From IMG/VR virus record IMGVR_UViG_2706796742_000001, positions 23,511-87,510 of that record: DNA of 64,000 nt, one strand, 5' to 3'. The DNA is from a virus. Lineage: Duplodnaviria; Heunggongvirae; Uroviricota; Caudoviricetes. Of the stretch, positions 1,789 to 4,325 are shown piece by piece. The position numbers were made by a program, and so were the translations under genes. The notes beneath the pieces are model-generated. The model did not search any database, was not told the DNA's origin, and saw only the letters and a list, made by a program, of their open reading frames with translations. Each line of letters starts with the position of its first letter. The stretch's first letter is position 1.

Positions 1789-3204
1789 ATGAGCGAATTA
1801 TTTAAACATGCGCACCTTCATGCAGGTCGAACTGAAAATGGTGCTATAAACCATACTTCACCAATGTCTGCTCTGGTAGACTTCTACAAAGCCGCTGGCT
1901 CAAGCCGTAGCAATGTAGAAATCTTACCAGACCTGTTCTACAAAGCTTTGCGTGAGGATGTTGATGTTGCAGTTCGTATTTTACTGCATATGCGAGATGT
2001 ACGAGAAGGTATGGGTGAGCGTAAAGCTTTCCGAACTGTTTTACTTCAAGCAATTGAAGATAAAGTTTTAGAGCCTACACAGGTTCTTCGTATTATGGAT
2101 AAGATTGCAGAACTTGGTCGTTTTGATGACTTCAAAATCTTCGTAGGTACTCGTTTTGAGACAGATGCCTTCAAACATTTAGAAACAGCATTACTAGACC
2201 CTGCAACAGCAGGTTTAGCAGCTAAGTGGTTACCACGAGTAAAACCACGCCACAAACAGTTTGTAAAACGTTTCTGTAAGTTTGCAAACTTAAGTGAGAA
2301 GGAGTATCGCACACTGTTATCTGCACTGTCTGATACGGTTGAGCAAAAAATCTCTGCTAATGAGTTTGGTAAGATTGACTACAGCAAGATTCCTTCACTC
2401 GCTGCTGCACGTTACCAAAAACTCTTTAACCGTAAAGATGGGGAACGTTACAAAGCTTACATCGAGTCACTCTCAAAAGGTGAGGCTAAGATTAATGCTG
2501 GTGCTGTTTACCCATACGATGTGATTAAATCTATTAAATATGGTAATGCAGATGTTGCTAATGAGCAGTGGAAAGCACTACCAAACTGGATGGCAGAAGG
2601 TGAAAACATCCTGTGTATGACTGATGTTTCAAGCTCAATGTCTTGGGTGAATCTTGGCTCAATCACTGCCCTTGATATTGGTGTATCACTTGCCTTGTAT
2701 GTAGCAGAACGCAATACAGGTTGCTTTAAAGATGAGTTAATGGTTTATTCAACAAACCCTCACTTCATCGAACTGAGTGGTGATTTACGAAACCGTCATC
2801 GTCAGGTAATGCGTCATGTTGAATATGGCTCAACTAACTTACAAGCAGCTTTTGACCGCATTCTTGAGACAGGTAAGAGAAACAACTTGACTCAGAAAGA
2901 TATGCCAAGTAAGCTTATCATCTTCTCTGATATGGAGTTTAATCAGGTTGATGGTGCAAATGGTCGTACAAACTTTGAAGCAATTCGTAGTAAGTACAAA
3001 AAAGCTGGATACGAAATGCCACAACTAGTATTCTGGTACTTAGCAAACCGTAATGGTACTTGCGAAGTATCTGTTAAGGATAATGGTGTAGCAATGGTAT
3101 CAGGGTTCTCTCCAGCTACTTTAAAAGCTCTGCTTGGTGGTGAGAAGTTTGACCCAATCAGTGTAATGCTCAAAGCAGTAATGATTGACCGTTACATCTG
3201 GTAA
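1789..3204 (+). CDS. vWA-domain protein with MIDAS-like DxSxS motif; possibly Ro60/TROVE-like
   Basis: 471-aa ORF with good RBS; MTDVSSSMS and later IIFSDME resemble a vWA metal-ion site; TROVE assignment is unverified inference. Confidence 0.5.
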   Translation: MSELFKHAHLHAGRTENGAINHTSPMSALVDFYKAAGSSRSNVEILPDLFYKALREDVDVAVRILLHMRDVREGMGERKAFRTVLLQAIEDKVLEPTQVLRIMDKIAELGRFDDFKIFVGTRFETDAFKHLETALLDPATAGLAAKWLPRVKPRHKQFVKRFCKFANLSEKEYRTLLSALSDTVEQKISANEFGKIDYSKIPSLAAARYQKLFNRKDGERYKAYIESLSKGEAKINAGAVYPYDVIKSIKYGNADVANEQWKALPNWMAEGENILCMTDVSSSMSWVNLGSITALDIGVSLALYVAERNTGCFKDELMVYSTNPHFIELSGDLRNRHRQVMRHVEYGSTNLQAAFDRILETGKRNNLTQKDMPSKLIIFSDMEFNQVDGANGRTNFEAIRSKYKKAGYEMPQLVFWYLANRNGTCEVSVKDNGVAMVSGFSPATLKALLGGEKFDPISVMLKAVMIDRYIW

Positions 3205-3222
3205 AAAGTTTTAAAAAGGGTA

Positions 3223-3251
3223 TTGACAATGTGTTTGATACCCTTTAATAT
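3223..3251 (+). promoter_or_regulatory. strong sigma70-like promoter
   Basis: TTGACA 3223-3228, 17-nt spacer, TAATAT 3246-3251; TTTTAAAAAGGG upstream. Confidence 0.6.
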
Positions 3252-3313
3252 GTTCTACATAGAAACGAAATGAGAGCTTTTCTAAGATACTGAAAAATAT
3301 TTTAAAAAAGTTC

Positions 3314-3343
3314 TTGACAACCACTAAAAAATAATGTTAAAGT
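3314..3343 (+). promoter_or_regulatory. sigma70-like promoter ahead of tRNA array
   Basis: TTGACA 3314-3319, 18-nt spacer, TAAAGT, TG at extended -10; TTTTAAAAAAG upstream. Confidence 0.5.
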
Positions 3344-3369
3344 GGTTACATAGAGTTTGAAAAGTTTAT

Positions 3370-3446
3370 CTCTGTTTAGCTCAGCTTGGTAGAGCGTTCC
3401 GTTTGGGGCGGTAAGGCCGGAGGTTCAAGTCCTCCAACAGAGACCA
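3370..3446 (+). tRNA. tRNA-Pro (anticodon TGG)
   Basis: hand fold: acceptor CTCTGTT/AACAGAG, D-stem GCTC/GAGC, anticodon loop TTTGGGG, T-arm GGAGG-TTCAAGT-CCTCC, CCA encoded. Confidence 0.7.
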
Positions 3447-3453
3447 AATTAAT

Positions 3454-3531
3454 GTTCCAGTAGACAAAATGGTATAGTCACCACTCTTTCAAAGTGGATA
3501 TTTGAGGGTTCAAATCCCTTCTGGAACGCCA
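3454..3531 (+). tRNA. tRNA-Glu (anticodon TTC)
   Basis: acceptor GTTCCAG/CTGGAAC, anticodon stem CCACT/AGTGG with loop CTTTCAA, T-loop TTCAAAT, CCA encoded. Confidence 0.65.
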
Positions 3532-3538
3532 GTTTTGA

Positions 3539-3611
3539 CAGAAGACCAATTACAGCAAACTTAATCTTATACATCTGAAGGTAAATCGGACAAAGAAGAG
3601 ATTTGGTCTGG
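3539..3611 (+). repeat. structured element, CAGAAGACC...GGTCTGG family, copy a
   Basis: 5' CAGAAGACCAA and 3' TTGGTCTGG can pair across ~55 nt; motif recurs at 3706, 4156, 4243, 5921. Confidence 0.4.
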
Positions 3612-3622
3612 TCATTAAGAAT

Positions 3623-3699
3623 TGCGGGTATAGAGAAAGGGCGTCTCACATGTCTCATTAGCATGGTATCGGCAGGTTCGACTCCTGCACCCGCCTCCA
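3623..3699 (+). tRNA. tRNA-Met or Ile2 (anticodon CAT)
   Basis: anticodon stem CATGT/GCATG with loop CTCATTA, T-arm GCAGG-TTCGACT-CCTGC, CCA encoded; position 1-72 is mismatched. Confidence 0.6.
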
Positions 3700-3705
3700 A
3701 TTTTG

Positions 3706-3766
3706 CAGAAGACCGTATGCAGCAATAAACTACTTTTTGCGGATAAAAGAAAAAAACACGGTCTGG
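3706..3766 (+). repeat. structured element, CAGAAGACC...GGTCTGG family, copy b
   Basis: CAGAAGACCGTATGCAGCAA ... CACGGTCTGG. Confidence 0.4.
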
Positions 3767-3777
3767 CAATGTATTAA

Positions 3778-3854
3778 GGTTAGGAAGCACATAAGGTATG
3801 TGCGGTCGCCTGTTAAGCGAATGGCACAGGGTTCGAATCCCTGACTAACCGCCA
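3778..3854 (+). tRNA. tRNA-Asn (anticodon GTT)
   Basis: acceptor GGTTAGG/ACTAACC, D-stem GCAC/GTGC, anticodon loop CTGTTAA, T-arm CAGGG-TTCGAAT-CCCTG, CCA. Confidence 0.7.
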
Positions 3855-3922
3855 AATTTAGGAGAGAAGCGATTGCTCACCGATTTGTAAGGTGCAAGTC
3901 CTTAGCCTGAATAGAAATTAAA

Positions 3923-4011
3923 TGTGTCGTTATCCCGTAGATGGTAGCGGTGGGGACTGTAAATCCCTTGTCATTGAGACTCGGTAGGTTCGACTCCTAC
4001 ACGGCACACCA
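3923..4011 (+). tRNA. tRNA-Tyr (anticodon GTA), long variable arm
   Basis: acceptor GTGTCGT/ACGGCAC, anticodon stem GGGGA/TCCCT with loop CTGTAAA, long variable arm, T-arm GTAGG-TTCGACT-CCTAC, CCA. Confidence 0.75.
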
Positions 4012-4016
4012 ATAAA

Positions 4017-4094
4017 GGCTATGTAGTTTAATAGGGTTAAAATACTCCCCTGTCACGGGAGATGATGTGAGTTCAAGTCTCATCGTAGCCGCCA
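4017..4094 (+). tRNA. tRNA-Asp (anticodon GTC)
   Basis: acceptor GGCTATG/CGTAGCC, anticodon stem CTCCC/GGGAG with loop CTGTCAC, T-loop TTCAAGT, CCA. Confidence 0.75.
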
Positions 4095-4155
4095 ATTTTG
4101 AGAGGGCTATTTAGCCCCTCCCTTAAAGGGTTCTTACGAGTATCCTTTAAAGGGG

Positions 4156-4229
4156 CAGAAGACCAAATTCAGCAAGTTACTTAAAATTTCAAGCCAATTC
4201 AATTTTGAAAAAATTTAAAACTTGGTCTG
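4156..4229 (+). repeat. structured element, CAGAAGACC...GGTCTGG family, copy c
   Basis: CAGAAGACCAAATTCAGCAA ... ACTTGGTCTGG. Confidence 0.4.
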
Positions 4230-4242
4230 GCTCAACAAATTT

Positions 4243-4325
4243 ACAGAAGACCGTTTACAGCAAAACTTAAACAATCTATTTCTCGGTAAAGAAAAGGCGA
4301 AGGTTCGATTCCCTCCACTTCTACC
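4243..4325 (+). ncRNA. tRNA-like chimeric element: CAGAAGACC 5' motif joined to a T-arm and CCA 3' end
   Basis: starts CAGAAGACCGTTTACAGCAAA like the repeat family, ends GAAGG-TTCGATT-CCCTC then CACTTCT-A-CCA; AGAAG/CTTCT can pair as a 5-bp acceptor-like stem; no canonical anticodon arm found. Confidence 0.35.

What the first reader, a model, noticed from the sequence alone, without database searches (positions are those of the whole stretch)
1789..4325. vWA/MIDAS protein (possible Ro60/TROVE-like) immediately upstream of tRNA-like structured RNAs
The 471-aa ORF has a vWA-type DxSxS metal site (MTDVSSSMS) and sits ~170 bp upstream of a tRNA array containing repeated non-tRNA structured elements, one of which ends in a T-arm plus CCA. 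Bacterial Ro60 (Rsr) proteins combine TROVE and vWA domains and are usually encoded next to Y RNAs, some of which (YrlA) carry a tRNA-like module. If this is a Ro60-like protein, the adjacent elements are candidate cognate RNAs, a phage-borne RNP not obviously described for this gene context.
Basis: partly seen in the sequence, partly recalled or inferred. Interest (0 to 1): 0.75.

Follow-up and report, generated by a model that had tools for sequence, protein, structure and literature searches.

The report
Phage Ro60-like protein with partner RNAs
A Felix O1-type phage encodes a divergent relative of the Ro60 RNA-binding protein next to small structured RNAs hidden between its tRNA genes; the same protein-RNA pairing recurs in phages of three bacterial phyla, which points to an undescribed class of Y-RNA-like partners for a known anti-defence protein.

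The parts
1720..1749 (+). sigma-70-like promoter candidate (TTGACA-18-TAAAGT) upstream of the Ro60-like gene
   Evidence: Consensus match only. The total promoter-like count in the region is not above the shuffle expectation.
1789..3204 (+). Ro60-fold protein gene (DUF2828 + DUF7788/vWA with MIDAS), ortholog of Bas63 gp130
3223..3343 (+). two sigma-70-like promoter candidates (3223-3251, 3314-3343) between the gene and tRNA-Pro; likely drive the tRNA/element transcript
   Evidence: Consensus only.
3536..3614 (+). element E1: outer stem TGAC/GTCA, AGA and G bulges, 7-bp stem AGACCAA/TTGGTCT, linker TTA, CAGCAA 3553-3558; sits between tRNA-Glu (ends 3531) and tRNA-Met (starts 3623)
   Evidence: sequence. 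MFE fold. Independent CM R1 26.3 bits, E 9e-5. Covariation.
3703..3769 (+). element E2: TTGC/GCAA outer stem, AGACCGT/ACGGTCT inner stem, linker ATG, CAGCAA 3720-3725; between tRNA-Met (ends 3699) and tRNA-Asn (starts 3778)
   Evidence: (26.6 bits, E 7e-5).
4153..4233 (+). element E3: GGGC/GCTC outer stem, AGACCAA/TTGGTCT inner stem, linker ATT, CAGCAA 4170-4175
   Evidence: (29.1 bits, E 1.3e-5, best hit in the window).
4241..4326 (+). element E4, truncated: intact 5' half (TTAC-AGA-AGACCGT-TTA-CAGCAA 4258-4263, small hairpin, 5' side of its T-arm) fused within the T-loop (~4302-4312) to the 3' end of tRNA-Lys(UUU) (...CTCCACTTCTACCA); lacks its 3' closing strands
   Evidence: alignment A2. 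Only a partial CM hit of 13.9 bits. No closing helix in the MFE fold. The deletion is absent from relatives.
3370..8260 (+). 25-gene tRNA array in which the elements are embedded; flanking tRNA processing sites would release them
   Evidence: ARAGORN. Rfam.

Best explanation
The gene at 1789-3204 encodes a highly divergent Ro60-type protein: an N-terminal helical-repeat ring domain plus a C-terminal vWA domain with a complete MIDAS site. E1, E2 and E3, and the now-truncated E4, are genes for small structured RNAs of a previously uncatalogued Y-RNA-like family. They are co-transcribed with the tRNAs and released by the tRNA-processing nucleases that cut on either side of them. Each RNA pairs its 5' and 3' ends into a ~7-bp closing stem. 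In Ounavirinae this stem is extended by AGA/G bulges and a covarying 4-bp outer stem. The stem presents a 3-nt linker and an invariant single-stranded CAGCAA, followed by a variable module, either a small hairpin or a tRNA-like domain. I propose that the stem-linker-CAGCAA module is the binding site for the Ro60-like protein. The resulting RNP would work like Ro60-Y RNA particles, with the RNA gating or tethering the protein during RNA surveillance or counter-defence early in infection. Shown here: the protein fold; the RNA family's conserved structure; its genetic linkage to the protein family; and its location in tRNA slots. Taken from the literature: the ortholog counters the Ppl defence. 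Inferred: expression as stable RNAs, direct binding, and the function of the RNP.
Against: There is no direct evidence here of expression, processing or binding. No TROVE sequence-profile hit was found. The canonical Ro-binding motifs (GGUCCGA, GNCGAAN0-1G) are absent. The Rfam Y_RNA/YrlA models do not reach threshold anywhere and give nothing on E1-E3. MFE z-scores of E1-E3 are weak, -0.9 to -1.3. gp130 alone, without the phage RNAs, restores T7 plaquing on a Ppl host, so the RNAs are dispensable for the one known phenotype. About a third of homolog loci show no element within 6 kb. 43 of 88 element-bearing contigs have no homolog in the DNA examined, although most of those were only ~15% examined or are small fragments. 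The R1 E-values are rough because calibration was shortened.
Confidence: 0.62

Rival explanations
1. The elements are cis-acting RNA signals rather than trans-acting partner RNAs. They could be operators in the gene's own 5' or 3' UTR through which the protein autoregulates, or processing and stability determinants for the polycistronic tRNA transcript.
For: In many distant loci one element starts ~30 nt after the stop codon or just upstream of the start codon, on the same strand. In tRNA arrays they abut tRNAs by 5-12 nt. gp130 acts without them against Ppl.
Against: Tandem multiplicity of 3-5 copies. Copies lie in tRNA arrays 10-25 kb from the gene. Variable tRNA-like modules would be pointless for an operator. 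They are absent from tRNA arrays of phages lacking the protein, so they are not a general tRNA-processing device. In Archie a terminator follows the third element, as for a gene-plus-sRNA operon.
Confidence: 0.15
2. The elements are degenerate or remodelled tRNA genes, or tRNA-array 'filler' that spreads by recombination. Their link with the protein is indirect: both are simply accessories of tRNA-rich phages, and the RNAs bind some other factor, such as host tRNA enzymes, PNPase, or a tRNA-targeting defence nuclease as decoys.
For: They occupy tRNA slots. Some carry tRNA bodies, either permuted or in normal order. The window's E4 recombined with a tRNA through T-loop homology. Phage tRNAs are thought to counter tRNA-targeting defences.
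Against: The defining stem-N3-CAGCAA module is not a tRNA feature, and it is conserved from actinobacterial to enterobacterial to Listeria phages. Many gene-adjacent copies lie in loci with no tRNA within 6 kb. LeBron and Archie copies are not in tRNA arrays. Control tRNA arrays lack them. The strand and distance coupling to the gene is 54/54 same strand with a median of 150 nt.
Confidence: 0.13
3. The protein is only a structural look-alike of Ro60 that acts through protein-protein contacts, for example vWA/MIDAS-mediated inhibition of Ppl. It does not bind RNA, and the neighbouring RNAs are unrelated.
For: No TROVE sequence signal. vWA/MIDAS domains are classic protein-interaction modules (many vWA hits). 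gp130 alone suffices against Ppl. The Listeria homolog is found in virions.
Confidence: 0.08

Closest known systems
Bas63 (Felixounavirus JohannRWettstein) gp130, PhageMaP preprint PMC11482910
   Same: Ortholog: 98% identity, identical synteny directly upstream of tRNA-Pro/Glu/Met/Asn/Tyr/Asp. Already described as structurally similar to Ro60, as a counter of the Ppl defence, and as transferable to T7. The authors speculated on Y RNA partners.
   Different: The preprint suggested that some annotated tRNA genes might be the Y RNAs. It did not identify the inter-tRNA stem-N3-CAGCAA elements, their structure, or their conservation in other phages. The window's phage also lacks the intact fourth (tRNA-like) element and tRNA-Lys(UUU).
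Bacterial Rsr (Ro60) with YrlA/YrlB or Yrn1 Y RNAs (Salmonella rsr-yrlBA-rtcBA; Deinococcus RYPER), Chen et al. 2014 PMC4201824
   Same: A ring-plus-vWA protein encoded next to several small RNAs whose ends pair into a stem. One RNA per genome carries a permuted tRNA-like domain (T-arm, closed acceptor hairpin, D-arm). RtcB is a neighbour in the Listeria phage.
   Different: No TROVE HMM match. The RNA motif is CAGCAA after a 3-nt linker, not GNCGAAN0-1G. Rfam YrlA scores are 38-40 bits against a cutoff of 69. The RNAs sit in tRNA arrays and are presumably released by tRNA processing. The known phenotype is counter-defence.
Thermus phage phiLo phiRo60 with Yrl1/Yrl2 (PDB 9KOP, 9L5Y; PMC12135203)
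   Same: A phage-encoded Ro60-fold protein with two adjacent Y-like RNAs. It is the best Foldseek hit of the model (E 1.5e-8).
   Different: phiRo60 is a recognisable TROVE protein whose RNAs carry the CGAA motif. The identity to the window protein is only 15-17%. There is no tRNA-array context.
Listeria phage CKA15_055 and mycobacteriophage cluster L 'Ro-like RNA binding protein' (LeBron gp53)
   Same: Same protein family, ~29-35% identity over the full length. For CKA15 the best HHpred match was Rsr, and Y RNAs were speculated. LeBron gp53 is toxic on overexpression. I find three tandem CAGCAA elements next to the gene in List-36, LeBron and Archie.
   Different: Those papers did not define the RNAs. 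In these phages the elements directly flank the gene rather than sitting between tRNAs.
T4 stable RNAs rnaC/rnaD (species I/II) at the end of the T4 tRNA cluster
   Same: Small non-tRNA RNAs co-transcribed and co-processed with phage tRNAs, function unknown (annotation; function statement from my own knowledge).
   Different: No CAGCAA module: model R1 is negative on the RB3 array. T4-like coliphages have no homolog of the protein (census).

Membership tests
Ro60/Rsr (TROVE + vWA) proteins | Two-domain architecture: helical-repeat ring (TROVE) followed by a vWA domain, superposable on solved Ro60 structures | tested here: met
Ro60/Rsr (TROVE + vWA) proteins | Sequence-profile match to the TROVE domain (Pfam PF05731) or to Ro60 sequences | tested here: not met
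   No TROVE hit at E<=1 for the window protein or at E<=10 for 14 diverse members. phmmer and a 47-sequence profile against PDB sequences found no Ro60. One member hits vWA_Ro60 PF25045 at E 0.005.
Ro60/Rsr (TROVE + vWA) proteins | Complete MIDAS motif (DxSxS ... T ... D) in the vWA domain | tested here: met
   D279, S281, S283, T349 and D381 are invariant in 47 and in 14 sequences.
Ro60/Rsr (TROVE + vWA) proteins | Binds Y RNAs and misfolded RNAs | not testable with these tools
   Only genomic linkage to a structured RNA family is shown.
Y RNA / YrlA (Rfam RF00019, RF02553) | 5' and 3' ends pair into a closing, bulged stem | tested here: met
   E1-E3 MFE folds. A6 pair counts 154/154, 5 compensatory pairs. 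RNAalifold on element 4.
Y RNA / YrlA (Rfam RF00019, RF02553) | Ro-binding sequence GGUCCGA (animals) or GNCGAAN0-1G (bacteria) in the 5' strand | tested here: not met
   Motifs as quoted. The conserved block here is W-G-R-N4 / N-U-W / CAGCAA. The enterobacterial AGAAG resembles CGAAG but is not conserved in other lineages.
Y RNA / YrlA (Rfam RF00019, RF02553) | tRNA-like domain (T-arm, closed acceptor-like hairpin, D-arm) in at least one RNA per genome | tested here: not met
   Not met in this window: E1-E3 lack it and E4 is truncated. Met in all 20 other Ounavirinae loci and in KP13-16, LeBron, Archie and L027.
Y RNA / YrlA (Rfam RF00019, RF02553) | Score at or above the Rfam gathering threshold | tested here: not met
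   Window: no Y_RNA or YrlA hit except noise over tRNA-His/Phe (17.3 bits, E 7.3). Relatives reach 38-40 bits against a cutoff of 69.
Y RNA / YrlA (Rfam RF00019, RF02553) | Encoded next to the Ro60-type gene, same strand | tested here: met
   Window: elements lie 330-1040 nt downstream. Across phages.
Pfam DUF2828 / DUF7788 family (PHROG 850) | Profile matches above the curated cutoffs | tested here: met
   DUF7788 147 bits (cutoff 27), DUF2828 99 bits (cutoff 29). phrog_850 E 4.6e-183.
tRNA genes | Cloverleaf recognised by ARAGORN or Rfam RF00005 | tested here: not met
   E1-E4 of the window are not called. Intact element 4 of relatives only grazes RF00005 (29.6 and 28.8 bits against a cutoff of 29).

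The most novel reading that the evidence does not exclude
The stem-N3-CAGCAA RNAs are the dedicated Y-RNA class of a whole divergent Ro60 clade (DUF2828/DUF7788; >2,700 database homologs, 708 phage records). They are produced by hijacking tRNA-array processing. Their variable modules, including permuted or normal-order tRNA bodies, recruit or decoy host RNA enzymes or tRNA-targeting immune nucleases. The RNP would then be a widespread phage counter-defence and RNA-surveillance particle, in some phages delivered with the virion.
Probability: 0.4. Interest if true: 0.88.

Novelty: new variant of a known kind. Interest (0 to 1): 0.74.

Why it matters
Ro60-Y RNA particles are known from animals, some bacteria and a few phages. 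How widespread they are in viruses, and what they do there, is still open. This work links a protein with a demonstrated anti-defence phenotype (Bas63 gp130 against Ppl) to a concrete, sequence-defined set of candidate partner RNAs that can be mutated, pulled down and imaged. It also explains some of the unexplained non-tRNA spacers in phage tRNA arrays, and it flags spurious small ORF annotations laid over them. It gives a searchable signature (7-bp stem, 3-nt linker, CAGCAA) for a family absent from Rfam 15. The family spans phages of Proteobacteria, Firmicutes and Actinobacteria. If binding is confirmed, it would show that a Ro60 clade invisible to TROVE profiles evolved its own RNA recognition code.

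Tried and rejected
1. Alternative topology. I tested whether GGTCTGG lies upstream and AGAAGACC downstream of a tRNA, so that the repeats bracket tRNAs. It fits only tRNA-Met and leaves the first AGAAGACC unpaired. Covarying outer stems support the spacer topology instead.

2. E4 as a YrlA-like RNA with CCA in this window. Rejected: it is a deletion chimera with tRNA-Lys.

3. Rfam at gathering and at E<=10 on the window. Only tRNAs and noise were found: Dicty_Class_I at E 5-7 on E1/E2, and YrlA at 17 bits over tRNA-His/Phe.

4. Sequence routes to Ro60. phmmer and a profile against PDB sequences, NCBIfam, and Pfam at permissive E all gave no TROVE hit.

5. Thermodynamic stability of E1-E3. Their z-scores are not significant, so I did not use them as evidence.

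6. Promoter and terminator scan. The counts are not above shuffles, so the TTGACA sites are only suggestive.

7. Strict-pattern pair counts on A4. These are circular, because the sequences were selected for pairing, and are reported only as a description.

8. Literature. The Chen 2014 supplementary phage table and the 2020 Annual Review were not available. A DUF2828 literature search returned nothing relevant.

9. Accession guesses. Three were needed to locate Bas63.

10. Protein-to-tRNA proximity. tRNAs lie within 6 kb in only about a quarter of the diverse gene loci. I do not claim a direct gene-tRNA association. The RNA-tRNA association is the stronger one.
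Full report
WHAT IS THERE

The window is a Felix O1-type myovirus (Felixounavirus). Region 1200-4500 is 95-97% identical to Salmonella phage BPS15Q2, Escherichia phage JH2 and about 250 other records. ORF 1789..3204 (+) encodes 471 aa containing MTDVSSSMS. It ends 165 nt before tRNA-Pro, the first of 25 same-strand tRNA genes at 3370-8260. Between the tRNAs, the block CAGAAGACC-N5-CAGCAA occurs four times (3540, 3707, 4157, 4245), and GGTCTGG follows three of the four (3605, 3760, 4224).

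THE PROTEIN

Pfam gives DUF2828 (E 3.6e-28) plus DUF7788 (E 5.8e-43). There is no TROVE hit, even at permissive thresholds in 14 diverse members. PHROG 850 is labelled "RNA-binding protein", and NCBIfam has nothing. Neither the single sequence nor a 47-sequence profile finds Ro60 among PDB sequences.

The family is large. It has 2,702 database hits and 708 phage records. These include Ounavirinae, KVP40-like vibriophages, Campylobacter, Aeromonas, Listeria, Staphylococcus, Enterococcus and Bacillus phages. They also include cluster L mycobacteriophages, where the protein is annotated "Ro-like RNA binding protein".

PRIOR ART ON THE PROTEIN

The protein is 98% identical to bas63_0130, with identical synteny. 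The PhageMaP preprint (PMC11482910) reports the following:
- Deleting g130 cripples Bas63 on a host carrying the Ppl defence.
- Complementation rescues the defect.
- gp130 is "structurally similar to Ro60" and sits directly upstream of the tRNA genes.
- gp130 alone, from a plasmid or inserted into T7, restores T7 plaquing on Ppl.

Two other papers are relevant. For a homolog in Listeria phage CKA15, the authors found an HHpred match to Rsr, detected the protein in virions, and speculated that nearby abundant transcripts are Y RNAs. LeBron gp53 is moderately toxic when overexpressed. None of these papers defines the RNAs.

THE ELEMENTS IN THE WINDOW

E1 (3536-3614), E2 (3703-3769) and E3 (4153-4233) share one design:
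- an outer 4-bp stem that differs between copies but stays complementary (TGAC/GTCA, TTGC/GCAA, GGGC/GCTC)
- an AGA bulge on the 5' strand and a G bulge on the 3' strand
- a 7-bp inner stem (AGACCNN/NNGGUCU)
- a 3-nt linker
- the invariant CAGCAA
- a variable A-rich middle

MFE folding of each element recovers this closing helix, although the stability z-scores are weak at -0.9 to -1.3. I collected 14 distinct closing-helix variants from 21 Ounavirinae loci, defined only by the 5' block and a downstream GGTCTG. All 154 cells pair, 5 of the 6 variable pairs show compensatory changes, 0 of 500 shuffles reach the observed covariation, and slid registers fall to 17-47% paired.

E4 IS A DELETION CHIMERA

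Felix O1, Bas63, SUSP2, HP1, 3HA14, ESh19 and 14 IMG/VR relatives all have a fourth element of 121-130 nt. RNAalifold folds it as follows:
- the same bulged closing helix
- a small hairpin
- a T-arm
- a closed acceptor-like hairpin, seen as ACUCG/CGAGU, ACACG/CGUGU and ACCCU/AGGGU (three pairs with compensatory changes)
- a D-arm

This is the permuted tRNA-like order described for YrlA. In the window, about 270 nt are missing between the T-loop of element 4 and the T-loop of the downstream tRNA-Lys(UUU). This leaves 4241-4326, which ends ...CUCCACUUCUACCA. None of the 40 listed database relatives shares this junction. This phage has lost both its YrlA-like RNA and tRNA-Lys(UUU), unless the junction is an assembly artefact.

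THE SAME RNA DESIGN NEXT TO DISTANT HOMOLOGS

- Klebsiella phage KP13-16 (51% protein identity): five tandem elements fill the gap between the gene and the first tRNA, each reading AGAAGNN-WWW-CAGCAA...NNCUUCUG. Three carry tRNA-like modules. One scores 39.7 bits with Rfam YrlA, full length, E 1.9e-5 (5.7e-7 in the local search).
- Mycobacteriophages LeBron and Archie (~33%): three tandem elements follow the gene. The middle one is tRNA-like (YrlA 39.8 bits, E 1.8e-5), and in Archie a terminator closes the unit.
- Listeria phage List-36 (29%): three tandem elements sit in the 400-nt gap just upstream of the gene. tRNAs lie further upstream, and an RtcB ligase gene lies 1.3 kb downstream, echoing the bacterial rsr-yrlA-rtcBA operon.

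STATISTICS, PROTEIN TO RNA

I took 60 non-redundant IMG/VR loci at 39-46% protein identity.
- CAGCAA on the gene strand occurs at 1.33/kb within 600 nt of the gene. The comparisons are 0.28/kb farther away, 0.18/kb on the other strand, and 0.06-0.37/kb for seven scrambled hexamers.
- A perfect 7-bp stem is present for 57/94 near-gene motifs and 39/156 distant ones (Fisher p 2.7e-8).
- Scanning the assumed linker length from 0 to 15 nt gives a sharp peak at 3 nt (57 of 94) over a background of 8-19, with spillover of 30 and 26 at the adjacent 4- and 5-nt offsets.
- 39 of the 60 loci have at least one strict element within 600 nt of the gene.
- The consensus is A-G-G-W-U-N-N / (U)-U-W / CAGCAA ... 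N-N-A-W-C-C-U-G.

INDEPENDENT MODEL

A covariance model (R1) was built from 29 short elements, none from Ounavirinae. Its results:
- In the 64-kb window, both strands, it ranks E3, E2 and E1 as the top three hits (29.1, 26.6 and 26.3 bits; E 1.3e-5 to 8.8e-5). Truncated E4 gives only a partial hit.
- In 25 kb of Bas63 it finds exactly the four elements.
- In 583 kb of diverse loci, all 29 hits at E <= 0.01 lie on the gene strand.
- In 44 kb covering the tRNA arrays of T5-like Bf23, T4-like RB3 and rV5-like FFH2, groups with no homolog in the tblastn census, the best E-value is 0.21.

STATISTICS, RNA TO PROTEIN

I ran a blind scan of IMG/VR for the consensus with three stem pairs left free.
- 120 of 147 matches (82%) are fully complementary, against ~7% expected by chance.
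- 43 of 96 element-bearing stretches encode a homolog. It is always on the same strand (54/54) at a median distance of 150 nt. Only 3 of 24 stretches with non-complementary matches do so.
- The remaining "orphan" elements are almost all (55/58) within 1 kb of tRNA genes. They sit inside tRNA arrays on the same strand, 5-12 nt from their neighbours. At least three such arrays belong to contigs whose Ro-like gene lies 10-25 kb away.

The window's arrangement, with elements in tRNA slots, is therefore typical of the family.

MECHANISM PROPOSED

The elements are transcribed with the tRNAs. Promoter-like TTGACA sites are at 3223, 3314 and 4500 (suggestive only). The RNAs would be released by the RNase P and 3'-processing cuts that mature the flanking tRNAs. 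The closing stem, linker and CAGCAA would be the recognition module for the Ro60-like protein. The variable module (hairpin, permuted tRNA-like domain, or a normal-order tRNA body as in L072 8329-8427) would be an effector or tether, by analogy with Y RNAs.

Shown here: the fold, the RNA structure, the bidirectional genomic linkage, and the tRNA-slot location. Inferred: expression, binding and function. Because gp130 alone counters Ppl, the RNAs are more likely regulators, or adaptors for other activities, than obligatory cofactors.

COMPARISON AND NOVELTY

The protein's Ro60 likeness, its tRNA-adjacent position and its anti-Ppl role are already in a preprint. I found no description of the RNA family in the searchable literature or in Rfam 15.

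The family behaves like Y RNAs. It fails the sequence-level membership tests, both the Ro-binding motif and the Rfam threshold. I therefore class it as a new variant of a known kind. Overall confidence in the RNP interpretation is ~0.6. Confidence that the protein has a Ro60 fold, and that E1-E3 belong to a conserved structured-RNA family linked to it, is >0.9.

Noticed in passing
L010 (Listeria phage List-36) 2426-2977 +: A ROOL RNA (RF03087) match of 91.5 bits, E 2e-17, just under the gathering score of 99.1. It lies between tRNA genes ~1 kb upstream of the Ro-like gene. It probably corresponds to the ~490-nt highly transcribed non-coding region reported for phage CKA15.
   Followed up: partly
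window 3855-3923 and 4095-4152 (+): Two further inter-tRNA spacers fold more stably than all 200 shuffles (z -2.64 and -2.95). The second forms two hairpins just before E3. Neither has the CAGCAA module, and their role is unknown.
   Followed up: partly
window 34612-34669 (-): The element model R1 gives a fourth full-length hit (23.5 bits, E 5e-4; UGGCUGU-AGGUU-CAGCAA...CAGCCA-G) far from the array, inside a 119-codon ORF (34473..34832, same strand). It could be a chance match or an embedded copy.
   Followed up: partly
window 4427-4699; L005 2042-2229; L003 5890-5965: Weak tmRNA-type matches just after tRNA-Ile or inside the array: RF04321 at 23.4 bits in the window and 36.5 bits (E 1e-4) in phage 3HA14. 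In KP13-16, a 76-nt tRNA-like element (GGGG...CUCCACCA) matches only the two ends of the tmRNA model (31.6 bits).
   Followed up: no
window 4323-4331 and tRNA list: Because of the 270-nt deletion, the window's phage lacks tRNA-Lys(UUU), which all examined relatives have. Only tRNA-Lys(CUU) at 5562-5637 remains.
   Followed up: yes
L095 (Bas63) 20749-21023; L006 (ESh19) 806-1022 and 1497-1710; L001 5368-5538; L002 5858-5986: Deposited records annotate small 'hypothetical protein' CDSs, often on the opposite strand, over the structured RNA elements. These are probably spurious gene calls.
   Followed up: partly
L042 7412-7469, L033 5528-5585, L034 2084-2141, L049 7057-7113: In one clade of uncultured phages, the single-stranded loop of the short elements carries two extra AGCAA repeats spaced ~10-15 nt after the invariant CAGCAA. 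This suggests multivalent binding.
   Followed up: no
L072 8329-8427 +: An element whose closing stem (AGGUUCC...GGAACCU) and CAGCAA enclose a normal-order tRNA body: RF00005 positions 5-66, 55.7 bits, with D, anticodon and T arms but no acceptor stem. This is a different solution from the permuted YrlA-like layout.
   Followed up: partly
window 1336-1707 (+): A 123-aa DUF5681/phrog_4114 gene always precedes the Ro60-like gene in Ounavirinae (SUSP2, HP1, Bas63). Its function is unknown, and it may be co-transcribed with the Ro60-like gene.
   Followed up: no
L217 (T4-like RB3) 4258-4522: The T4-type tRNA array ends with the annotated stable RNAs rnaD and rnaC. They are another case of non-tRNA RNAs co-processed with phage tRNAs, but they are unrelated to the CAGCAA family (R1 negative).
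   Followed up: partly
window 5042-5116 (+): A weak tRNA-Sec-model match (21.3 bits, E 1) in the 238-nt gap between tRNA-Arg and tRNA-Ser. It may be a decayed tRNA.
   Followed up: no
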